25,337 nucleotides of DNA from a virus (taxonomy: Duplodnaviria > Heunggongvirae > Uroviricota > Caudoviricetes), in IMG/VR virus record IMGVR_UViG_2698536560_000009, positions 1 through 25,337 of that record; one strand, given 5' to 3'. Below, piece after piece: positions 16,982-25,337 of this stretch. A program made the position numbers and the translations under genes. Numbering within the stretch: position 1 is the stretch's first letter; each line of letters starts with the position of its first letter. The notes under the pieces are model-generated. The model was not told the origin of the DNA, did no database searches, and saw only the letters and a program-made list of their open reading frames with translations.

Positions 16982-17010
16982 GTTAGGGAATCGGATTTGT
17001 TGGAGTGTTT

Positions 17011-17514
17011 ATGAATCAGAAGCTCATCCAAACAGTCATTTCTGAGTGTCATCGTATAGAAGAGGACGCTCTTTACTCTTCTAAATCTCATTATAATGTT
17101 TCTGATAGATGGGATAAGCTGAATCTGTGGTTCGGTGTACCATTAGCAATCTTAACCGCTTTGAGTGGTATTGCCGCAATCAAGAGTACAGCCAATGCTG
17201 TTGTAGCTATTTCCATAACTGCTACAATTCTAACTGCATTAAATACGTCTCTTAACCCAAGTAAGCGTGCTGCACTTCATAAATCAGCAGCAAATGAATA
17301 TAATAAATTAAAGAATGAAGTTAGAATATTTAGGGAAATATTGACTTCTAATTTTGATTTTACTGATAAAACTTTGATTGAAAAACTTACGAGTTACTCT
17401 GATCGACGCAATCAACTTAATTCAAGTTCGCCAAATATTCCTCGGTGGGCTTATGAGAAAACTCAAAGAGATGTTAACCAAGGCTTTACTAAGTATAATA
17501 TTGACAAGGAATAA
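17011..17514 (+). CDS. SLATT-like two-transmembrane effector protein
   Basis: 167 aa from the ATG at 17011 (GGAG 6 nt upstream; the ORF track begins at a GTG at 17005). Two adjacent hydrophobic helices (LWFGVPLAILTALSGIAAI and AVVAISITATILTALNTSL) are flanked by short soluble regions. The stop lies 2 nt before the NTase start. The family call rests on architecture and on the SMODS neighbour. Confidence 0.45.
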   Translation: MNQKLIQTVISECHRIEEDALYSSKSHYNVSDRWDKLNLWFGVPLAILTALSGIAAIKSTANAVVAISITATILTALNTSLNPSKRAALHKSAANEYNKLKNEVRIFREILTSNFDFTDKTLIEKLTSYSDRRNQLNSSSPNIPRWAYEKTQRDVNQGFTKYNIDKE

Positions 17515-17516
17515 AC

Positions 17517-18293
17517 ATGACAGTCAGTACCTATCTTGAGTCTATTAAAAGCAATGCTTATCAAAGAGATATTACAATAACGAATTCAATTGCAACCATA
17601 AAAAACAGACTGAATGGTTATTTTGCTGGTGAACTTGTTAGTCATTTTGTATTTGGCTCATATTCACGTAATACAATGCTTCCTCGTAGCTATGATCCTT
17701 CTTCTGATGTTGATTATATGGTTGTATTCAAAAATGTAATATATCAGCCTCAGACCTACCTAAACAAGCTAAGGGGTTTTGTAAATTATTACTATCGTAC
17801 ATCTGAAATAAAGCAAAGCCACCCTACTATTCAATTGAACCTTAATCATATTACTTTCGAGCTTGTCCCTGCATCTCATAATATTTTATTTGGTTATCAA
17901 ATCCCTTCCAACCAGGATTTTTTGAACCGTTGGATGAATACCGATCCCAATGCGTTCAATACTGATTTAACTAATTGCAATAAAAATAATAACAATTTAA
18001 TTAAGCCTCTTATTCGCATAATGAAATATTGGAATGCCAATGCAGGTTATGTCTTTGAGTCGTATCAACTTGAAAAAGATATTGTTAGCTTTAACTATTT
18101 TTGGTGCTCTACCCTTAAAGAATATTTTTACTCTGCTGTAGAACAACTTTCAGGTTCCTATTATCTCGCACAATGGAAAAAAGATAAGATTCAGCGTCTA
18201 AAAAATTCAGTTATGATGTCAAAATATTATGAGCAGTTAAACAATCATTTTGCCGCCGAAAATGAAATAAAGAAAATTTTACCCATAAAATAA
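17517..18293 (+). CDS. SMODS / CD-NTase-like nucleotidyltransferase (Pol-beta superfamily)
   Basis: 258 aa. Carries the GS-x15-DVD signature (FGSYSRNTMLPRSYDPSSDVDYMVVF), a downstream acidic ITFELV, and a LIRIMKYW motif like the OAS/cGAS-type helix. AAGGA Shine-Dalgarno 8 nt upstream. Confidence 0.6.
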   Translation: MTVSTYLESIKSNAYQRDITITNSIATIKNRLNGYFAGELVSHFVFGSYSRNTMLPRSYDPSSDVDYMVVFKNVIYQPQTYLNKLRGFVNYYYRTSEIKQSHPTIQLNLNHITFELVPASHNILFGYQIPSNQDFLNRWMNTDPNAFNTDLTNCNKNNNNLIKPLIRIMKYWNANAGYVFESYQLEKDIVSFNYFWCSTLKEYFYSAVEQLSGSYYLAQWKKDKIQRLKNSVMMSKYYEQLNNHFAAENEIKKILPIK

Positions 18294-18298
18294 TCTTG

Positions 18299-18326
18299 CC
18301 CCCTTATATTACTAATTATAAGGGGG
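18299..18326. terminator. perfect 10-bp stem hairpin immediately after the NTase gene
   Basis: cccccttata - ttactaat - tataaggggg, starting 6 nt after the stop at 18291-18293. A U-rich tract follows on the minus-strand side, so it may act bidirectionally. Confidence 0.4.
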
Positions 18327-18540
18327 TACAGCTCATTGTCTTTGCTTGAATCCAAAAAATCATTCTCGATATTTTTACTTGTAAGAATTGAGTACAGTTG
18401 AAACATTCCACCGTCGTACAGCTAAATGAGATTGCTAAGATTGTATGACCCGCTCCTCTACCATCAGTATCAGGAGATTACATTCCCTTATCGCTAAAGA
18501 TAGCAGTTTTGTGAGAAGAGATAGTTTCCAATTTCTAATT

Positions 18541-18567
18541 TATAAGCCAGTTAGTTGCTGGCTTATA
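18541..18567 (-). terminator. hairpin 4 nt downstream of the tail-anchored protein gene
   Basis: tataagccag - ttagttg - ctggcttata, a 10-bp stem. There is no clear U-run. Confidence 0.3.
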
Positions 18568-18571
18568 ATCA

Positions 18572-19246
18572 TCATGATTTAACAGATACTAATGCCAGAA
18601 TAGATGCTACTGCGGCAGCCAACGAAACTATAAGACTTAATGTAGGTATATATAATGCTGTAACTCTTCTAAACTTGTTCTCTTTGTCGTTATACTGAAT
18701 AAAAAACATCTTAATTTTCAGTAAGCGGATTAAAATTAAATCTTTTAATGCGGCCTTGTGTAAAACACCTGTAACACGGTGATAATGAAGTAAATTCTTT
18801 ACTGCTTTCTCTATTTTTTTTGGTGTTATGTGTTTAACGTTATATGAATGATGGACAATCAAGGAATCATGTGTTGCTAATGAATCATCTGAAGTAGACG
18901 GAAAAAGAATTATATGCACAGCCCCCGTCGCACTATATGTAATTGAAAGTGCGGCTCCTTTTTGCCAATGATGATTAAACTTTATGCTTTCGGTAGTTTT
19001 TTCCTGCCGCATATTTCCAGTCATACGATCAGCGATCTGAAATGTCAGGCAATCAAAACCATAACCATCTGGTTCATCTTGCATATCAATTATATTAAAT
19101 CTTATATGCTCTCCTGATAATTGGGTTGATAGTATTTCTAATTGCTTTTTTATTTTAGGTTTGAATATAATCCAGTTTACATTAGAAATTAATCTTCTAA
19201 GTTCGTCTCTTTCAAACTTTGCTCTAAGCTCTTTCTTCCACTCCAT
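18572..19246 (-). CDS. hypothetical tail-anchored membrane protein
   Basis: 224 aa with a GGAG Shine-Dalgarno and ATG at 19244-19246. A soluble His-rich domain is followed by a single C-terminal transmembrane helix (LYIPTLSLIVSLAAAVASILALVSV). Sits alone on the minus strand between hairpins. Confidence 0.5.
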   Translation of the reverse strand: MEWKKELRAKFERDELRRLISNVNWIIFKPKIKKQLEILSTQLSGEHIRFNIIDMQDEPDGYGFDCLTFQIADRMTGNMRQEKTTESIKFNHHWQKGAALSITYSATGAVHIILFPSTSDDSLATHDSLIVHHSYNVKHITPKKIEKAVKNLLHYHRVTGVLHKAALKDLILIRLLKIKMFFIQYNDKENKFRRVTALYIPTLSLIVSLAAAVASILALVSVKS

Positions 19247-19569
19247 TATCTCCCCCTAAGCCTCTTGCTACTATAGATTATTTAGATTCTATCGTACCAT
19301 AATTGATAAACTTACCCTAGGTCGATAATCAATAGTATATGTATGTTCTATTTGGTGGTAAAGTGTTAATGCTACATGGTATAGGCTATAATGATGATTA
19401 CTCATAAAATCAATTCTTATATCGATATTTTCAGTTTATTATCGCAGTTTGAGTATTCGTCCATGTATAAGTTTGCATAAAAAATAGCACACTGGTTAGA
19501 GTAAAATCATATTGAACATTGTGTTTGAATGCTCTATATTTTGGTGATGTTAACTTTTGAGATTGCAGA

Positions 19570-20373
19570 ATGAAATTTGTCTCTGAAAGAATTGACCATG
19601 TAAAAATAGCTAATGGATATTGTGTAATATGTGGTAATTTTGGCAAATTAAAAAAAGACCATGTTCCCCCGCAATGTGCATCTAAACCTTCACCTATGTT
19701 ACAAAAAACGATTTCTGAGTATTTCTCTAATACTCGAGTACCACCAATTAAAGCAAAAAGCGGGACAACTTTTCGTACCATTTGTCACAATTGTAACTCG
19801 AATATTTTAGGATCAATGGATGCAGAAATAGGCCGTGTTACAACTGAATTCATCGAAAAGTTAAATGATTATTTTAGTGGTAAGTTCTTTTACAAAAATT
19901 ATATTTCATTAAAATTTGATGCGGATAAATTTCTAAGAGCAATGATTGGACACCTTCTGGCTGCAACTTCAGTAAAAGATTGTATGAAGCCTATTGTTGA
20001 TAGTCCTTTTTATACTCCATTGAGAAATTTTGTATTAGGCAGGAATCCAGACATTGGGGCAACTCATAATATTTACTATTGGTTTTATCCATTCAGAAAA
20101 CAAATTACTGCTCAGTCAGTTACATTCTACAATAATGGACATCATAGTATATGTTCTTGCTTACATTTTTTCCCAATATCTTTTTTGGTTACACTGAAGG
20201 AGCAAGGAACATTTCCTATTCATGCAACTGAAATGACTCAATATGATCAATCTCTTCATTTTAATATGACAACGGCTAATATTGATTATGCTTCATTTCC
20301 CTTTGTAGGTTTAAAGAATAATCAATTTATGATGGTAATTTCTGGTCATACTTGTGTTAGTTATCCTAAATGA
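19570..20373 (+). CDS. HNH-motif (His-Me finger) nuclease-like protein with uncharacterised C-terminal domain
   Basis: The N-terminus contains C-x2-C ... DH ... C-x2-C-N (CVICGNFGKLKKDHVPP ... TICHNCNSN). The spacer is longer than in the canonical HNH motif. The C-terminal ~180 aa are unrecognised. Confidence 0.5.
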   Translation: MKFVSERIDHVKIANGYCVICGNFGKLKKDHVPPQCASKPSPMLQKTISEYFSNTRVPPIKAKSGTTFRTICHNCNSNILGSMDAEIGRVTTEFIEKLNDYFSGKFFYKNYISLKFDADKFLRAMIGHLLAATSVKDCMKPIVDSPFYTPLRNFVLGRNPDIGATHNIYYWFYPFRKQITAQSVTFYNNGHHSICSCLHFFPISFLVTLKEQGTFPIHATEMTQYDQSLHFNMTTANIDYASFPFVGLKNNQFMMVISGHTCVSYPK

Positions 20374-20400
20374 TTTTCAACTAAAGGTTGAGAAATATAG

Positions 20401-20445
20401 ACATAAGAACATAAGAACATAAGAACATAAGAACATAAGAACATA
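20401..20445. repeat. tandem octanucleotide repeat (ACATAAGA) x 5.6
   Basis: acataaga x5 then acata, in the intergenic region between the HNH gene stop (20373) and the next gene (20591). Confidence 0.9.
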
Positions 20446-20457
20446 GTCCAACTGTTC

Positions 20458-20519
20458 AGCGACACGTCCCACACACACCAACTAAACAAACCTACCCTTT
20501 ATGAGTGGGGCGTGTCGCT
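20458..20519. repeat. GC-rich inverted repeat with 15-bp arms (one mismatch) and a 32-nt CA-rich spacer
   Basis: agcgacacgtcccac (20458-20472) pairs with gtggggcgtgtcgct (20505-20519); the spacer is acacaccaactaaacaaacctaccctttatga. Confidence 0.8.
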
Positions 20520-20590
20520 AATAGTTTACGCCAGAATGGTTATTATGGTAAAGTTCATTTTTCACTTTGATATATTGGATTTCTAAAAAA

Positions 20591-21142
20591 ATGGAAGCTG
20601 AAACCATTACACAACTCATTGCAGTCGGTGGTACTTTAGGCGGTGCATTAATAGCTGCGGGTGTAACATTGGCAAGCCAATTAATCACTAAAAAATATGA
20701 GAACGAAAAACTAAAAAAACAACTTTTATTCAAAATACTCGAAGATGAATTAAAAGAAAAAAAGCAAACTATTAAACCTTTCATTCAGTTTATTAATTCT
20801 TTGAATCTTCCAGAAAATTTTAATTTTTATGATGATGGTGATCTTTTAGATCAAATTATGCTTTATAAACAGGATTTAATTAAAAGTAAAGCAAGTGACT
20901 TCCTTCTCGATTATACATTATACATGACACCACAAATTCACGATGCGATTTGGACGGTTACTAATGCTATAAATGATTTTGAAGAATTGGGAGCACGGTT
21001 TTATGATTCATCATTGAGTAAACAAGAAAACGATGAAATATTACTTAGAAATTGTAGCGGTAAGCCAACTGAAATTTGGGAAGCTTTGATGAAATTGAAA
21101 GGCTTGCTCTATAGTGAAGTTAACATAGCTGATAAATTATGA
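20591..21142 (+). CDS. hypothetical membrane-anchored coiled-coil protein
   Basis: The ORF track starts at a TTG at 20567; the first ATG is at 20591. An N-terminal transmembrane helix (LIAVGGTLGGALIAAGVTLASQLI) is followed by a K/E-rich helical domain. The stop overlaps the next gene's ATG as ATGA at 21139-21142. Confidence 0.5.
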   Translation: MEAETITQLIAVGGTLGGALIAAGVTLASQLITKKYENEKLKKQLLFKILEDELKEKKQTIKPFIQFINSLNLPENFNFYDDGDLLDQIMLYKQDLIKSKASDFLLDYTLYMTPQIHDAIWTVTNAINDFEELGARFYDSSLSKQENDEILLRNCSGKPTEIWEALMKLKGLLYSEVNIADKL

Positions 21143-21840
21143 ATATAAAAACTATAAACTCTACTCTTGTCGGCATTGTTGCAGTACTTCTGTTTTTAGC
21201 AGTCTTAGTACTCGTTAAGGTTCTATTCGCTGGTAGCAGGGGGTTTGAATGGGGGAACGCAGCTGATTTAACAAGTGCGTTATGCAATATCGTGATTGCG
21301 TCTACAGCTCTTTGTGCTGCTTTTGTAGCAAATAATTGGTTCGTTCAGAATAAAAAATTAAAATCCCTTTCTACCTCACATCAGTTGGCTATGAAATTTG
21401 AGATGCAGTTATGGGAAATAAATTCACGTTTATATAATGATGGTATAGTTCGTGCTTCCATCAGGAAATATGTTCAGGATAATAAAGAACTGACAGATGA
21501 AATAAAATCTAAAGTTGCTGCTGAAATTAATAAAAAGGCCACAAGTGATTTATCTGAACTTGCTAAGCTATATACGACAAGGTCAATGCTAGCCAGGTTT
21601 GATATTAAGTTAAGCGAACGGCTTGAAAATTTATTTAAAAATATATTAGAGTTAAGGCAGTCATATTTAGACAATCAATATATATATCTATTGACCATAT
21701 GCAAACATATTAATTGCCCCAAGCATGAGGACGTAATTGCAGCTACAGAAAATCTTGAAAGTGTTAAAAGAGAGCTAGCTGCCATATTTCAGTACGAGCT
21801 ATGTGAAACAAATATTGATACTGATTATTCGTTCAGCTAA
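21139..21840 (+). CDS. hypothetical 2TM membrane protein (paralog A)
   Basis: 233 aa with an N-terminal hydrophobic hairpin (LVGIVAVLLFLAVLVLVKVLFAGSRGFEWG, then LCNIVIASTALCAAFVANNWF) and a soluble C-terminal domain. The N-terminus is about 35% identical by eye to that of the 22818-23561 protein. Confidence 0.5.
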   Translation: MNIKTINSTLVGIVAVLLFLAVLVLVKVLFAGSRGFEWGNAADLTSALCNIVIASTALCAAFVANNWFVQNKKLKSLSTSHQLAMKFEMQLWEINSRLYNDGIVRASIRKYVQDNKELTDEIKSKVAAEINKKATSDLSELAKLYTTRSMLARFDIKLSERLENLFKNILELRQSYLDNQYIYLLTICKHINCPKHEDVIAATENLESVKRELAAIFQYELCETNIDTDYSFS

Positions 21841-21877
21841 ATTTATAGTTAATTGATGTAAATAAAAAGGAAAGCTT

Positions 21878-22699
21878 ATGCTTGGGGAGTCATTTAATCA
21901 ATTCATGGTAGAGTCTTATTTGTCCAGTACCTCAATAGGTGGTGGGCTTACTGCTGTGCGGAAATGTAGAGCACATGATAAAGGTAGCTTCTATAGCAGC
22001 TTCTTTCAATTATCAATTGGCATAGAAAGGTTTTTTAAGATTATCTTCATACTCAATCATATGATCGAAAATAATCTTGAGAAGCCAGACTTCCGTACAC
22101 TTAAAAAATTCAGCCATAATATTGCGGAGCTTCATAAAAACTGTTCAAGCTATGGTGCTAGCCATTTACCCAATTTGGAGTGGGAATTAAACTGGCAGCA
22201 AAACCTCATATTAGAAATGCTTTCTGAATTCGCTGATGCTTCAAGATATTATAATCTTGATAAAATTGTAAAAGGCAAAAAAGAAGTCAAAGATCCGTTA
22301 GCACAGTGGAACGAAATAATTAATTCTTGCTTCCGTAAACACATTACTGATTCTAGAAAACAAAAACTAGAAAGAGAATTAAATTTATGGGCCGACAAAT
22401 ACAAAGCATACGGTTACACCTGGAATAGAGGTCTTGATGGTGCGATTTTAAGCCAAATTGATGAGTATATACTTTCCTGGAAAGTAATAAACGTTTCACC
22501 TTATATTGTGTTTGAAATCATTGATATGTTGCAGCCTTATTATTATCTAATTTCTAAATTTAAAGATGATATTGACAACATTGAGCACAGTAAAGGGATA
22601 AGAGAACCTCTGGTTCCATATCTCCATGAGATATTTGTATTTCTACTTGTCCATAAGAAGTTAGCTTTGAGTAGAAAAACATGGAGTTTCCGTTATTAA
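21878..22699 (+). CDS. hypothetical soluble protein flanked by the two 2TM paralogs
   Basis: 273 aa with an AAGGA Shine-Dalgarno and ATG at 21878. An R-x4-H (RKCRAH) motif lies near the N-terminus, but no confident family assignment is possible. Confidence 0.45.
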   Translation: MLGESFNQFMVESYLSSTSIGGGLTAVRKCRAHDKGSFYSSFFQLSIGIERFFKIIFILNHMIENNLEKPDFRTLKKFSHNIAELHKNCSSYGASHLPNLEWELNWQQNLILEMLSEFADASRYYNLDKIVKGKKEVKDPLAQWNEIINSCFRKHITDSRKQKLERELNLWADKYKAYGYTWNRGLDGAILSQIDEYILSWKVINVSPYIVFEIIDMLQPYYYLISKFKDDIDNIEHSKGIREPLVPYLHEIFVFLLVHKKLALSRKTWSFRY

Positions 22700-22735
22700 T
22701 TACATGGACATGTATCACATTATTAATCAGAGAGG

Positions 22736-22753
22736 CACTAATCATGATTAGTG
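22736..22753. promoter_or_regulatory. 18-bp perfect palindrome cactaatcatgattagtg, candidate operator upstream of 2TM paralog B
   Basis: Perfect dyad in the 118-bp gap between the genes at 21878-22699 and 22818-23561. Confidence 0.35.
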
Positions 22754-22817
22754 GAATATATATCCATCAATGCTACATATATACATCTATGTCTTTTATT
22801 TAAGAAATGAGATTAAC

Positions 22818-23561
22818 ATGCTTAATATTAAAAAATATAATTTAATACTACTAAGTACCGTACTATTACTGCTGCTAATTGCTATATTAGTTGGTGTAAA
22901 AATATTATTTTCTGGTTCGAAAGGATGGGAGTGGGTAACTTTAATTGGAACATTATGTAGTGCTGTAGGTACATTAGGTACACTATGGGTAGCCTACCAA
23001 GCATACCTAAAAGCACCTGAATGGTTGTCGCAAAAACATTATGATGTAGTATATGGTGTTATTGAGAAAGCAATTTATCAAGATCTTAATAAAGTACGTA
23101 CTTCAACCTTAATTTTAAAACATCAATTAGTGACATTCTCCAAAAAATATCGCAATCATTTAAAAAACGAGACCATACCCCAAGATTCACATGATGAGTT
23201 TATGAAGGAAACAGATGCTCTTGTTTCCGATTTATTCTTCACTTCTTACTCCGTTATTAATTCCTTAAAATCTATTGATAGAACTAATTATGCTTTAAGC
23301 GAATACACAAAAAACATTATTGCTGAACTTAAATTAAATATTGATGAATATAACGGACTGAGTATCGATTTCTATATTGCAAGTTCTGAGGTTCCTGCAC
23401 TTATACAGGCCGATGAATGTGTGAGGGATCAAACTAGTAGTGAGCTTTTCGTTATACAGTCAAAAGCAATTTCACTTCACAATAAGATTTCATCTTTCAT
23501 AAAAGATATATATGATGATAACTATCCAATTGATAACTTCATAACTCTAAAGAAAAAATGA
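22818..23561 (+). CDS. hypothetical 2TM membrane protein (paralog B)
   Basis: The likely start is the ATG at 22818 (MLNIKKYNLILL...); the ORF track begins at 22770. The N-terminal hairpin LILLSTVLLLLLIAILVGVKILFSGSKGWEW matches paralog A (shared VK.LF.GS.G.EW). Confidence 0.5.
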   Translation: MLNIKKYNLILLSTVLLLLLIAILVGVKILFSGSKGWEWVTLIGTLCSAVGTLGTLWVAYQAYLKAPEWLSQKHYDVVYGVIEKAIYQDLNKVRTSTLILKHQLVTFSKKYRNHLKNETIPQDSHDEFMKETDALVSDLFFTSYSVINSLKSIDRTNYALSEYTKNIIAELKLNIDEYNGLSIDFYIASSEVPALIQADECVRDQTSSELFVIQSKAISLHNKISSFIKDIYDDNYPIDNFITLKKK

Positions 23562-23696
23562 TTAATACCCTATCTTGCAAACCTATTAAGTTTGTAGAAT
23601 TACTGATGACTTAATAGAAAAAGTCATACTTGATTCAAAATCATTAAGGATGCATATTAAAGAAACGTTTACATTTCCCAAATAAGCATCAGTTCT

Positions 23697-23730
23697 AAAA
23701 CACCGGATTTATCATTGCATCTGGTGTTTT
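23697..23730. terminator. hairpin at the convergent junction of the plus-strand island and minus-strand small genes
   Basis: aaaacacc / ggtgtttt 8-bp stem with an 18-nt loop. The right arm overlaps the last codons of the 66-aa ORF. Confidence 0.25.
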
Positions 23731-23912
23731 GAATAAATTTCTATTAGTAAATCTCTGTGTAGATTAGTACTAGGTAGTTCTTGCAATAATTGTATGTTAT
23801 GCTTTTCAATTACTTGATAACCTAGCTCTAGTACTTCTACAATTCCTTTTTTAAAATCAAACTCATAGATGTACTCTCCATAGTTATGGTGTATAAAATT
23901 GACGCCTTTCAT
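23712..23912 (-). CDS. hypothetical small protein (second gene of coupled pair)
   Basis: 66 aa with a GAGGA Shine-Dalgarno 7 nt upstream. Its ATG overlaps the stop of the 103-aa ORF as ATGA at 23909-23912. Confidence 0.4.
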   Translation of the reverse strand: MKGVNFIHHNYGEYIYEFDFKKGIVEVLELGYQVIEKHNIQLLQELPSTNLHRDLLIEIYSKHQMQ

Positions 23913-24220
23913 TCGTAGTCCTCACTTATTTTATTCATTTGTGTTTGAATAATAATTAATCGATTAATGTCGATCTCTGTTTGCAGTGCTAAGCTTGCTT
24001 GGAATAGTTCTGATTCACTCATCCTAGATAGATCAGGTGTTTCATTTATTTGAGTACCATCAATCTTCTGATGATAGAATTGTAGTCCTTCTCGTTGCAG
24101 TACTACACGTGTTGGGTGATTAAAGTAGACAATCTGATCCGTGAATACTGTCATAGTACTGTGATCCTCATACGTGTATCGGTGAAACAGATCATACTCT
24201 TCAGTTTTTAGTAATTTCAT
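23909..24220 (-). CDS. hypothetical small protein (first gene of coupled pair)
   Basis: 103 aa with an AGGA Shine-Dalgarno 9 nt upstream of the ATG at 24218-24220. No transmembrane segment and no recognised motif. Confidence 0.45.
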   Translation of the reverse strand: MKLLKTEEYDLFHRYTYEDHSTMTVFTDQIVYFNHPTRVVLQREGLQFYHQKIDGTQINETPDLSRMSESELFQASLALQTEIDINRLIIIQTQMNKISEDYE

Positions 24221-24329
24221 TTTTATTATCCTCTGTAGTACTGGTATTTATTAAAAAGGTGTGATTCTATAATAAAGGCCAGTTTATTTTCATAGTCTAA
24301 TGGGTATACACAGACTCCCTACTCACTTT

Positions 24330-24690
24330 CATTTCCTCATAGTATGCCTCTCGGTGGCTTGTGTGTTGCGTATTCATCCGGCGGTGCGGCTTCACACTTT
24401 AATTAATTAAGTTCCTAGCTAGTATGGGTAGTGGTTCACTTTAGTGAGCTTCAACAGCGAACGACCCAAACAAGGGAGTTTACGACCGCGTAGTACTCAC
24501 GAATACTTTAGACCGTAGGTCGACCCCAAATACTTTATTAATCACTTTGGTGAGTACATGGGGTTTGTTTGAGCGAAAGCAAGTAAAGGACTTGCTCGAC
24601 CTGAAAGGGCGAAAGTCTGGTTATAAATTCTAAGATCAAAGGCGAGCTTGCGAGGTTTTGATCTTCGGACTTCAGTCCATTTTATATGTG
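24330..24690 (+). ncRNA. GC-enriched structured non-coding segment (candidate ncRNA or late-transcript leader)
   Basis: No convincing ORF. Contains several local stems, including aagatcaaa/tttgatctt, agcaagt/acttgct, gtactcac/gtgagtac and two GCGAAAG (GNRA-type) hairpin loops. Strand and class are undetermined. Confidence 0.2.
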
Positions 24691-24707
24691 TTATTATATT
24701 ATAGTGT

Positions 24708-24719
24708 TCCATTAATGAA
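24708..24719. promoter_or_regulatory. operator-like palindrome copy 1 (tccattaatgaa, one mismatch)
   Basis: Imperfect copy of the TCCATTAATGGA dyad. Confidence 0.3.
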
Positions 24720-24782
24720 GTAAAATTCACAATTTCAACGGTAGAATGCGGGTTTCAAGCCATATATGTTGGAATATAACAC

Positions 24783-24794
24783 TCCATTAATGGA
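24783..24794. promoter_or_regulatory. operator-like 12-bp perfect palindrome TCCATTAATGGA (copy 2)
   Basis: Perfect dyad, 41 bp from copy 3. Confidence 0.4.
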
Positions 24795-24823
24795 ATAAAA
24801 TCTCTATTAGTGGATTAACTCAT

Positions 24824-24835
24824 TCCATTAATGGA
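24824..24835. promoter_or_regulatory. operator-like 12-bp perfect palindrome TCCATTAATGGA (copy 3)
   Basis: Perfect dyad, 14 nt from the stop of the 162-aa ORF. Confidence 0.4.
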
Positions 24836-24848
24836 GTTAAAAAATGCT

Positions 24849-25337
24849 TCATTTACCATCAATGAAACCCTGTAGAATAATAATTAGTTCCTCTGCTGAT
24901 GCTCCGCTATCATGTGCGTTTGCTAACGTCTCATAGAACTGTTTGTTGTCTATGTAGTGCATTCCGTCCTTTTGCACTTTGAATAGCTTCACTTTGCGTT
25001 TATGTGCTGCTATAAGAGCTTTTGATACTGCGGTTGCTACACGCCTTACCTTTACTGCGGTAGATTCACTTACACGTTCCTGAACTTCTTTTATATGATA
25101 GTCCTGGTAAAGATGTAACCTGGCTAAAACTTTCTCAGTACTGAATGTGATCAAATTGAAAACGATGTAATAGATCTTAAATCCACTATATGGCTTACCG
25201 TTACCCATTGGGACTGATGCTATTGCTTCATCAATTATCTGTTTTGCTTCTGGTGTAAGATCGTTGTCATAGTCTCCAAAATTCCCCGCAATGCGTAGGA
25301 ATGGTGTATTGTCGTAATCTCGTGCTTTATTTGCCAT
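24849..25337 (-). CDS. hypothetical protein (possible regulator; start coincides with window edge)
   Basis: 162 aa ORF whose ATG is at 25335-25337, exactly at the window end, so the true start could lie beyond the window. Stop at 24849-24851. Followed by a region with three TCCATTAATGGA palindromes. Confidence 0.4.
   Translation of the reverse strand: MANKARDYDNTPFLRIAGNFGDYDNDLTPEAKQIIDEAIASVPMGNGKPYSGFKIYYIVFNLITFSTEKVLARLHLYQDYHIKEVQERVSESTAVKVRRVATAVSKALIAAHKRKVKLFKVQKDGMHYIDNKQFYETLANAHDSGASAEELIIILQGFIDGK

What the first reader, a model, noticed from the sequence alone, without database searches (positions are those of the whole stretch)
23712..24220. Translationally coupled pair of small unknown proteins (103 aa and 66 aa)
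The two minus-strand ORFs have good Shine-Dalgarno sequences and an ATGA start/stop overlap, a layout typical of toxin-antitoxin or regulator pairs. Neither has a transmembrane segment or a recognisable motif. They lie between the accessory island and the operator-like region.
Basis: inference. Interest (0 to 1): 0.35.

Follow-up and report, generated by a model that had tools for sequence, protein, structure and literature searches.

The report
Conserved phage gene plus orphan partner
The two overlapping small genes are real, but they are not a conserved toxin-antitoxin pair: the 103-aa gene is a backbone gene of a poorly known family of E. coli/Enterobacterales prophages and encodes an acidic protein of unknown function, and the 66-aa gene is an E. 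coli-only orphan attached to it.

Summary
Minus-strand ORFs 24220..23909 (103 aa) and 23912..23712 (66 aa) share an ATGA overlap, each has a GAGG(A) ribosome-binding site, and they are unlikely to be chance ORFs.

The window is an E. coli prophage-like element between yggS and yggR. It has a large serine recombinase and a lambda-gpA-type terminase.

The 103-aa protein belongs to a small family of about 10 sequence clusters (29-44% identity). A member occurs in every related element found, always as the last gene of a swapped left module, just before convergent cargo genes and the terminase genes. All members are acidic (pI 4.3-5.6). AlphaFold gives a confident model of 7 beta strands plus 2 helices. 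Nothing in the PDB resembles it; the only relatives are uncharacterised small proteins (phrog_13866, RaK2-type jumbo phages).

The 66-aa gene has no homologue outside E. coli, and the gene coupled to the 100-aa gene differs or is absent in relatives. Neither protein matches a toxin, antitoxin, defence, lysis or structural family.

A toxin-antitoxin reading is therefore not supported. My best guess is an early accessory protein that works by binding another protein, with a lineage-specific add-on. The finding is ordinary to mildly interesting.

The parts
23909..24220 (-). 103-aa ORF. It encodes an acidic protein (pI 4.85, net charge -8) and is a member of a small conserved family (P0001, P0003-P0011) related to phrog_13866.
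23712..23912 (-). 66-aa ORF, translationally coupled through an ATGA overlap. It is an orphan gene found only in the E. coli element. The predicted fold is 4 beta strands plus 2 helices.
24230..24233 (-). GAGG Shine-Dalgarno sequence, 9 nt upstream of the 103-aa start codon
   Evidence: read directly from the sequence
23919..23923 (-). GAGGA Shine-Dalgarno sequence, 6 nt upstream of the 66-aa start codon. It lies inside the last codons (E-D-Y-E) of the 103-aa ORF.
   Evidence: read directly from the sequence
23697..23730 (.). Bidirectional terminator-like hairpin between the convergent 66-aa and 263-aa genes. It has 12-nt arms with 11 of 12 pairs. Folding energy is -17.7 kcal/mol on the plus strand (z -5.1) and -12.6 on the minus strand (z -2.9). 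A run of U follows the stem on both strands.
   Evidence: (I19)
24240..24283 (-). Inverted repeat (14-nt arms, 16-nt spacer) just upstream of the 103-aa ribosome-binding site. It overlaps weak promoter-like hexamers. Its role is unknown.
   Evidence: (I17)
24221..24697 (-). ORF-free leader of about 480 nt between the operator-flanked TATAAT and the 103-aa gene. It contains sequence blocks conserved in related elements.
24429..24524 (-). Most conserved core of the leader. It is 82% identical to the Cedecea lapagei element, although flanking proteins are only 26-41% identical. No consensus RNA structure was found, and it is not the cos site.
24625..24672 (-). Leader hairpin AGATCAAA...TTTGATCT. 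It is conserved in L044, and in L020 it is kept through three compensatory pair changes (AAA:TTT to TTT:AAA).
   Evidence: (I10)
24698..24703 (-). Perfect TATAAT -10 hexamer directly downstream of operator copy O3. It is the inferred promoter for the leader and the gene pair. The same operator-plus-TATAAT arrangement occurs in L044.
   Evidence: inference; there is no good -35 hexamer
24707..24836 (.). Three copies of the palindrome CTCCATTAATGGAG (24707-24720, 24782-24795, 24823-24836). These are the only three in the window, where 0.09 are expected by chance.
24849..25337 (-). 162-aa ORF upstream of the operators. It has homologues of 142-158 aa at the same place in L018 and L013; L020 and L044 have a 161-165-aa ORF there with no detectable similarity to it. 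All four have their own repeat set downstream. It is a candidate DNA-binding partner of the repeats.
22770..23561 (+). Convergent gene for a 263-aa protein with two predicted transmembrane segments. It is conserved (42-43% identity) next to the 100-aa gene in L016, L018 and L021, and also present in L010 and L044.

Best explanation
The two ORFs are not a functional cassette. They are a conserved backbone gene with a lineage-specific add-on.

The 103-aa gene belongs to a small family found in every known version of a poorly known group of serine-recombinase, lambda-gpA-terminase prophage-like elements of Enterobacterales. It is always the last gene of the hypervariable left (regulatory) module.

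In the window it is the first ORF downstream of a promoter flanked by three palindromic operators and followed by a conserved leader of about 480 nt. I infer that it is made when that promoter is derepressed, that is, early in lytic development. I also infer that the transcript ends at the bidirectional hairpin over the stop codon of the 66-aa ORF.

The product is a soluble, strongly acidic protein with a 7-stranded beta meander and a C-terminal helical hairpin. It shows no sign of DNA binding, catalysis or membrane insertion. It therefore most likely works by binding and blocking or adapting another protein. I think the target is most probably a host or defence protein, as with the small early accessory proteins of other phages.

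The 66-aa ORF is a young, E. coli-specific gene inserted at the module boundary. It is expressed by translational coupling and may assist or modify the same activity.

Shown: gene structure, family membership, synteny, acidity, predicted fold, and absence from known families. Inferred: the promoter, the timing, and the protein-binding mechanism and its target.
For: - Real genes.
- Family of about 10 clusters, with invariant Y15, Y17, Y32, R38, V40, L41, Q74, S76.
- Same position in all relatives (after the recombinase-proximal module, before convergent cargo and the small and large terminase subunit genes, TerS/TerL).
- Member of the swapped module. L018 and L016/L017/L021 are >=95% identical in the recombinase and terminase genes, yet carry 100-aa alleles that are only 36% identical.
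- Tandem paralogues in L013 and L021, typical of fast-evolving accessory genes.
- All members are acidic, pI 4.25-5.57.
- Confident model (pLDDT 88.9, pTM 0.81).
- The only relatives are uncharacterised small phage proteins: phrog_13866 (E 5.6e-7; 6 of 7 members hit), BFVD matches to RaK2, GAP32, PBECO4 and slurp01 proteins (TM 0.5-0.69), and a weak tblastn hit to RaK2 ORF385, which sits in an array of small hypothetical genes of a strictly lytic jumbo phage.
- Operators, TATAAT, leader and terminator.
- 66-aa ORF restricted to E. coli.
Against: - No direct evidence for any binding partner or phenotype.
- The promoter assignment rests on a -10 hexamer without a good -35. The promoter scan is no better than shuffled sequence in this AT-rich DNA.
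- The similarity to jumbo-phage proteins is weak (E about 0.01; Foldseek E 5.8e-4 at best).
- The gene travels with the immunity-like or replication-like left module, which would also fit a function directed at the element itself.
- The 66-aa ORF has no comparative support and could be non-functional.
Confidence: 0.4

Rival explanations
1. The 103-aa protein is a switch or control factor directed at the element itself and matched to the left module. Examples would be an antirepressor that binds the operator-binding protein, or a replication or copy-number modulator. The 66-aa protein would be a co-factor.
For: - The gene is always the last gene of the segment that is exchanged as a unit. That segment also carries the operators and the ~160-aa gene, or instead a 690-964-aa protein with a weak DEAD-helicase signal.
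- It is the first ORF after the operator-controlled promoter in the window and in L018.
- Known antirepressors are small acidic proteins that act by protein binding (general knowledge, not tested here).
Against: - The family occurs with both kinds of left module, so it is not tied to one regulator.
- Distant relatives are in strictly lytic jumbo phages that have no immunity system.
- In L013 and L020 other genes lie between the leader and the family member.
Confidence: 0.22
2. The 103-aa protein is a self-immunity (escape) factor. It would neutralise the convergent ~250-aa two-transmembrane protein, a likely exclusion or abortive-infection effector made by the prophage, so that the element's own lytic growth is not aborted.
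For: The arrangement of the 100-aa gene converging on a homologous 229-263-aa two-transmembrane gene recurs in the window, L010, L016/L017, L018, L021 and L044.
Against: - L013, L020/L012 and L015 have the 100-aa gene without that membrane protein.
- In L018 and L044 another gene lies between the two.
- The function of the membrane protein is itself unknown (no Pfam or PADLOC hit).
Confidence: 0.1
3. The 103-aa protein is the recombination directionality factor of the large serine recombinase. It would bind the recombinase to switch it to excision.
For: - Every element with the family also has a large serine recombinase.
- Directionality factors of serine integrases are unrelated small proteins that act through protein-protein contact and are often encoded far from the integrase gene (general knowledge).
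Against: - Elements with >=95% identical recombinase genes carry 100-aa alleles that are only 36% identical.
- The 49-51-aa genes next to the recombinase are better conserved (45-58% identity) and are inherited together with it, so they are better candidates.
- Distant relatives occur in phages without an integrase.
Confidence: 0.07
4. The pair is a new type II toxin-antitoxin or two-gene abortive-infection module.
For: Two small, overlapping, co-directional genes with their own inverted repeat upstream (24240-24283) sit at the edge of a defence-gene island.
Against: - The pair is not conserved as a pair.
- There are no toxin or antitoxin family hits.
- Both proteins are acidic and no DNA-binding domain is detected.
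- The 100-aa gene is a singleton backbone gene in most relatives.
Confidence: 0.06
5. The 66-aa ORF is not a functional gene. It would be a chance reading frame opened because the family's conserved C-terminal ...YE codon GAA followed by a TGA stop creates an ATG.
For: - No homologue was found in 5.8 billion proteins outside near-identical E. coli copies, and none in relatives.
- Its Shine-Dalgarno sequence lies in codons for the family's C-terminal acidic residues, so it may be a by-product.
- One ORF of >=66 aa arises in 8% of shuffles.
Against: - G+C is 0.49 at codon position 1 (0.15 and 0.25 at positions 2 and 3), and the ribosome-binding site is well spaced.
- The best single-sequence AlphaFold model is confident (pLDDT 82.8).
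- The only substitutions seen are missense (Y11D, M65I), and the frame is intact in all copies.
- E. coli has about 260 extra bases here compared with relatives, which fits an inserted gene.
Confidence: 0.15

Closest known systems
phrog_13866 and RaK2-type jumbo-phage small hypothetical proteins (e.g. RaK2 ORF385, UniProt H6X4J2)
   Same: There is a sequence-profile match (E 5.6e-7; 6 of 7 family members). Size is similar (about 100-115 aa). The predicted fold of a beta meander plus C-terminal helices is shared (TM 0.5-0.69). All are uncharacterised.
   Different: Those proteins are in large lytic myoviruses, within arrays of small early genes. This one is a single backbone gene in a temperate serine-recombinase element. 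Pairwise similarity is marginal (tblastn E about 0.01).
Type II toxin-antitoxin operons
   Same: Two small genes overlap by 4 nt, are co-directional, have an inverted repeat upstream, and lie next to defence cargo.
   Different: There are no family matches, the two genes do not co-occur across relatives, both products are acidic, and there is no DNA-binding antitoxin domain.
Small acidic early accessory proteins of temperate phages (lambda Gam, Kil and Ral; antirepressors; DNA-mimic anti-restriction proteins such as Ocr and ArdA)
   Same: They are small, soluble and acidic. The gene lies downstream of a repressor-controlled promoter. It evolves quickly and is sometimes duplicated. The likely mode of action is protein binding.
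   Different: There is no sequence or structural similarity to any solved example (Foldseek against the PDB: no hit with E <= 0.001). The resemblance is one of role only and is inferred.
Recombination directionality factors of large serine integrases (phiC31 gp3, Bxb1 gp47, TP901-1 Orf7, SPbeta SprB)
   Same: It is encoded in an element with a large serine recombinase. It is a small protein with no DNA-binding signature and is located away from the integrase gene.
   Different: Its alleles are not inherited together with the recombinase, and it has no similarity to known directionality factors.
Polo-box fold (Plk1 polo-box domain)
   Same: Both models share the general topology of an antiparallel beta sheet followed by a helix. 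The 66-aa model aligns at TM 0.63 over 62 columns.
   Different: The matches are not significant (E 0.05-0.7). The 103-aa model aligns at TM 0.26 with rmsd of about 12 A. This is a generic topology match, not evidence of homology.

Membership tests
Type II toxin-antitoxin module | Two small adjacent co-directional genes, usually overlapping or closely spaced | tested here: met
   ATGA overlap at 23912-23909, with both genes on the minus strand
Type II toxin-antitoxin module | At least one partner belongs to a known toxin or antitoxin superfamily | tested here: not met
   No Pfam, NCBIfam or PADLOC match for either protein at E <= 0.1, other than noise. No PDB sequence or fold match.
Type II toxin-antitoxin module | The two genes are inherited together across relatives | tested here: not met
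   The 100-aa gene is alone in L016, L018 and L020, and has other neighbours in L010, L013, L021 and L044. The 66-aa gene is found only in E. coli.
Type II toxin-antitoxin module | Antitoxin with a DNA-binding domain, plus a (usually basic) toxin | tested here: not met
   pI values are 4.85 and 5.88. No HTH, RHH or AbrB signature was detected. The predicted folds are beta meanders with C-terminal helices.
Type II toxin-antitoxin module | One product is toxic and the other neutralises it | not testable with these tools
   Needs expression experiments
phrog_13866-related small phage proteins (function unknown) | Significant match to the family profile | tested here: met
   E 5.6e-7 over residues 29-102; 6 of 7 family members match
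phrog_13866-related small phage proteins (function unknown) | Shared fold with phage members | tested here: inconclusive
   BFVD Foldseek: best E 5.8e-4, with TM 0.5-0.69 to RaK2, GAP32 and slurp01 proteins. I could not check which BFVD entries belong to the PHROG.
Serine-integrase recombination directionality factor | Encoded in an element that uses a large serine recombinase | tested here: met
Serine-integrase recombination directionality factor | Inherited together with, or co-evolving with, its cognate recombinase | tested here: not met
   The recombinase is >=95% identical between L018 and L017/L021 (95.8% and 96.5%; L016 matches L018 only from the recombinase 3' end onward, 87%). The 100-aa proteins of L018 (P0008) and L016/L017 (P0009) are only 36% identical.
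Serine-integrase recombination directionality factor | Stimulates attL x attR recombination | not testable with these tools
   Needs a recombination assay
DNA-mimic or anti-defence proteins with solved structures (Ocr, ArdA, Ugi, Tad, Acb and others) | Structural or sequence similarity to a solved member | tested here: not met
   Foldseek against the PDB gave no hit with E <= 0.001. A profile search against PDB sequences gave a best E of 0.25.
   The only PHROG hits are unknown-function families, and both proteins are hydrophilic.

The most novel reading that the evidence does not exclude
The acidic 100-aa family is a new class of early phage effector. Either it is a dedicated escape or self-immunity protein that switches off the prophage's own convergent two-transmembrane exclusion protein, or it is an inhibitor of a host defence or silencing factor. 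In this reading the E. coli 66-aa orphan is a newly recruited partner, and the operator-controlled promoter with its conserved ~480-nt leader is a previously undescribed control region of a prophage lineage that lacks recognisable replication and repressor genes.
Probability: 0.12. Interest if true: 0.55.

Novelty: new member of a known kind. Interest (0 to 1): 0.25.

Why it matters
By itself the pair is one more set of small phage proteins of unknown function. Showing that it is not a toxin-antitoxin cassette keeps a wrong label out of the annotation.

The finding has some wider use. The 100-aa family is a reliable marker gene at the edge of a cargo (defence-gene) hotspot in a little-studied prophage lineage. 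That lineage has a large serine recombinase, a terminase only 34% identical to any deposited phage, and no recognisable replication or repressor genes. In E. coli it has left behind a widely distributed SLATT-SMODS island.

If the family proved to be an anti-defence or self-immunity factor, it would add a new fold to that repertoire. It would also give a handle on how such prophages tolerate their own cargo.

Tried and rejected
- **Direct homology for both proteins.** I searched phages by megablast and tblastn, a 5.8-billion-protein word-indexed set and PDB sequences. Only self hits came back. The full HMMER scan of 1.84 billion representatives was needed to find the 103-aa family.
- **The 66-aa protein as a diverged paralogue of the 103-aa family or of neighbouring small ORFs in relatives.** hhalign gave probability 0.3%, phmmer E >= 0.69, and BLASTP against the L013 92-aa ORF E 0.22. 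Rejected for lack of evidence. The only shared feature is a general topology of beta strands followed by two helices.
- **The conserved leader core as the cos site.** Rejected. L016, L017 and L021 have terminase genes >=95% identical to those of L018 but lack the core.
- **The leader core as a structured RNA.** The RNAalifold consensus energy is only -2.5 kcal/mol, and there is no Rfam match at E <= 1. Only the upstream hairpin shows compensatory changes.
- **tRNA or tmRNA in the window.** None found.
- **Pattern scan of species-representative genomes for the leader core.** The 20 hits were in unrelated phyla and are chance matches. The viral-contig scan found nothing.
- **The search for related loci on genomes with the family alignment.** No relatives found. 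The metagenome scan added two.
- **Literature.** Two searches found no description of this element.

Full report
**Observation.** The 103-aa ORF runs 24220..23909 and the 66-aa ORF 23912..23712, both on the minus strand. The second ATG overlaps the first TGA, giving ATGA. GAGG lies 9 nt before the first ATG and GAGGA lies 6 nt before the second. In 2000 shuffles of 23562-24300, an ATG-ORF of at least 100 aa arose in 0.4% of cases and two ORFs of at least 66 aa in 0.2%. Both ORFs have 0.49 G+C at codon position 1 against 0.15-0.30 at positions 2 and 3. Neither protein is hydrophobic, and neither matches Pfam, NCBIfam or PADLOC.

**What the window is.** The minus strand from 16846 downward encodes TerS, a lambda-gpA-type TerL, a portal, a protease-capsid fusion, tail proteins and a tape measure. 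Positions 17005-23561 hold a plus-strand, AT-rich cargo island that begins with a SLATT gene and a SMODS cyclase. The sequence is 99.9% identical to E. coli N61. There the element of about 36 kb lies between yggS and yggR and starts with a 596-aa large serine recombinase.

On the minus strand the gene order is:
- recombinase
- 51-aa gene
- 49-aa gene
- HNH_3 remnant
- 162-aa gene (25337..24849)
- a 628-nt gap
- the 103-aa and 66-aa pair
- the cargo island, on the opposite strand
- TerS and the remaining packaging and virion genes

The closest TerL in 50,697 phage records is only 34% identical. No replication or repressor gene is recognisable. Of 90 complete E. coli genomes with any match to 23500-24900, 89 keep only the end of the cargo island, cut by IS3 at about 23668. 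All contigs carrying the pair show this same context.

**The 103-aa protein.** Word-indexed and BLAST searches found only near-identical copies. The exhaustive HMMER scan found seven more proteins, and a profile search added two. Family members are 29-44% identical, with invariant Y15, Y17, Y32, R38, V40, L41, Q74 and S76. Every member lies in a related element with a serine recombinase, a ~50-aa gene, a variable module, the 100-aa gene, often convergent cargo, then TerS, gpA-type TerL and portal. These are Cedecea lapagei L013, metagenomic L016-L021, L044 and L045, and L010.

L018 and L016/L017/L021 are at least 95% identical in the recombinase (L017, L021) and TerS-TerL-portal (L016, L017) segments. 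Between those segments, however, the DNA that ends with the 100-aa gene has been exchanged, and the two 100-aa alleles are only 36% identical. The 100-aa gene is therefore the last gene of a swapped left module. Two elements carry tandem paralogues: L013 with 117 and 103 aa, and L021 with 92 and 99 aa.

All members are acidic, with pI 4.25-5.57 and net charge -3 to -14. AlphaFold with the eight-sequence alignment gives pLDDT 88.9 and pTM 0.81, showing seven beta strands followed by two helices. Foldseek against the PDB finds nothing with E <= 0.001, and a profile search of PDB sequences also finds nothing. The only relatives are uncharacterised:
- phrog_13866, at E 5.6e-7, matched by 6 of 7 members
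- BFVD models of small proteins from RaK2, GAP32, PBECO4 and slurp01, at TM 0.5-0.69 and best E 5.8e-4
- weak tblastn hits to RaK2/K64-1 ORF385, which sits in a long array of small hypothetical genes

**The 66-aa protein.** No homologue exists outside near-identical E. coli copies in any database searched. None exists in the related elements, and none is detectable by profile comparison with the 103-aa family. The gene coupled to the 100-aa gene varies among relatives:
- none in L016, L018 and L020
- an unrelated basic 83-90-aa ORF overlapping upstream in L010, L044 and L045
- a paralogue in L021
- a 79-aa ORF downstream in L013

E. coli has about 260 extra bases here. One of five single-sequence AlphaFold models is confident (pLDDT 82.8; four strands and two helices). 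It has no significant PDB match. The E. coli copies differ only by missense changes. The gene is probably real but young. I put the chance that it is a non-functional reading frame at about 15%.

**Expression context.** The gap contains three copies of the palindrome CTCCATTAATGGAG, the only three in the window, where 0.09 are expected by chance. The third copy abuts a perfect TATAAT on the minus strand at 24703-24698. Related elements carry different repeat sets at the same place, directly after their own 142-165-aa gene. L044 repeats the arrangement of an operator followed by TATAAT. The ~160-aa protein is therefore a plausible binder of these sites; this is an inference.

An ORF-free leader of about 480 nt follows, with several conserved blocks. 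One is a hairpin at 24672-24625 that L020 preserves through three compensatory pair changes. Another is a 96-nt core at 24524-24429 that is 82% identical to Cedecea, although flanking proteins are only 26-41% identical. The core has no consensus RNA structure and no Rfam match. It is not the cos site, because elements with the same terminase lack it.

A strong bidirectional hairpin at 23697-23730 overlaps the stop codon of the 66-aa ORF. I therefore read the unit as operators and promoter, then leader, then the 103-aa gene, then the 66-aa gene, then the terminator. The promoter assignment is inferred, since promoter scans are uninformative in this AT-rich DNA.

**Interpretation.** The toxin-antitoxin reading fails three testable criteria: family membership, co-inheritance of the two genes, and the expected pairing of a basic toxin with a DNA-binding antitoxin. 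I put it at about 6%.

The recombination directionality factor idea is weakened by the lack of co-inheritance with the recombinase. A packaging role is weakened for the same reason.

What remains is a soluble, acidic, fast-diverging and occasionally duplicated small protein. It is encoded at the end of the regulatory module, next to a cargo hotspot, and has distant relatives among the small early genes of lytic jumbo phages. The most economical mechanism is stoichiometric binding of another protein. A host or defence target is my first choice (0.4). An element-internal switch or antirepressor-like role comes second (0.22). Escape from the convergent two-transmembrane protein comes third (0.1). 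None of these is shown by the data.

**Verdict.** The feature is real and correctly described, but the suggested function is not supported. It is a new member of an uncharacterised phage protein family with an orphan gene attached. Interest is low to moderate (0.25). The conserved leader and the unusual prophage lineage around it are the more intriguing by-products.

Noticed in passing
window 24707-24720, 24782-24795, 24823-24836: Three copies of the palindrome CTCCATTAATGGAG, the only ones in 25 kb (0.09 expected by chance), spaced 41 and 75 bp apart. The last copy abuts a perfect TATAAT at 24703-24698 on the minus strand. Related elements have different repeat sets at the same position, after their own 142-165-aa gene. 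This suggests binding sites that co-vary with that protein, which could be a repressor or a replication initiator.
   Followed up: partly
window 24221-24697 (minus strand); core 24429-24524; hairpin 24625-24672: An ORF-free leader of about 480 nt with sequence blocks conserved across elements whose proteins are only 26-41% identical. The core is 82% identical to Cedecea lapagei. One hairpin is kept through three compensatory pair changes in L020. There is no Rfam match and no consensus structure for the core, and it is not the cos site. Untested candidates are a put/nut-like antitermination RNA, an RNA-primed origin, or a platform for a conserved binding factor.
   Followed up: partly
whole window, and L001/L009 (E. 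coli N61, NZ_AP028880.1 792624-828788): A prophage-like element of about 36 kb between yggS and yggR. It has a 596-aa large serine recombinase and complete siphovirus-type packaging, head and tail genes, but no recognisable replication, repressor or endolysin genes. Its TerL is only 34% identical to the best of 50,697 deposited phages. It appears to be an undescribed lineage shared with Cedecea and with gut or environmental metagenomes.
   Followed up: partly
L018 2376-5629 versus L016/L017/L021: A mosaic module swap between elements that are otherwise >=95% identical. One version carries an HNH_3/NUMOD4 endonuclease, a 158-aa gene, the leader and a 104-aa gene. The other carries a 690-964-aa protein with a sub-threshold DEAD-helicase signal, a T5orf172 gene or a 92-aa gene, and a 99-aa gene.
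   Followed up: partly
window 17005-18293: A SLATT-domain gene followed by a SMODS nucleotidyltransferase (PADLOC cyclase PDLC00769, E 3.5e-113). This is a minimal CBASS-like pair at the terminase-proximal end of the plus-strand cargo island.
   Followed up: no
window 21139-21840 and 22770-23561: Two paralogous genes for membrane proteins of about 230-260 aa with two N-terminal transmembrane segments and no family match. The second is conserved (42-43% identity) and convergent with the 100-aa gene in several related elements. It may be an exclusion or abortive-infection effector.
   Followed up: partly
window 23500-23668; L002 (E. coli 55989): Of 90 complete E. coli genomes with a match, 89 retain only the cargo island. 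It is cut at about 23668 by IS3, and on the other side TerL is truncated by IS100. The defence island has therefore outlived the prophage in most strains.
   Followed up: partly
L001 20414-20725 (N61 copy of the 103-aa ORF): The RefSeq/PGAP annotation of strain N61 calls the 66-aa gene but not the 103-aa gene, although that ORF is intact with a single G55C change.
   Followed up: yes
window 23697-23730: A strong hairpin between the convergent genes (-17.7 kcal/mol on the plus strand, z -5.1). It is missed by the simple terminator scan and overlaps the last codons and the stop codon of the 66-aa ORF.
   Followed up: yes
L001 22364-22513 and 22698-22853 (outside the window): Two tiny genes (49 and 51 aa) next to the recombinase are the best-conserved small genes of the element family (about 40-58% identity) and are inherited together with the recombinase. 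The 49-aa protein has a weak ribbon-helix-helix (CdrS) hit. They are candidates for an excision factor or regulator.
   Followed up: no
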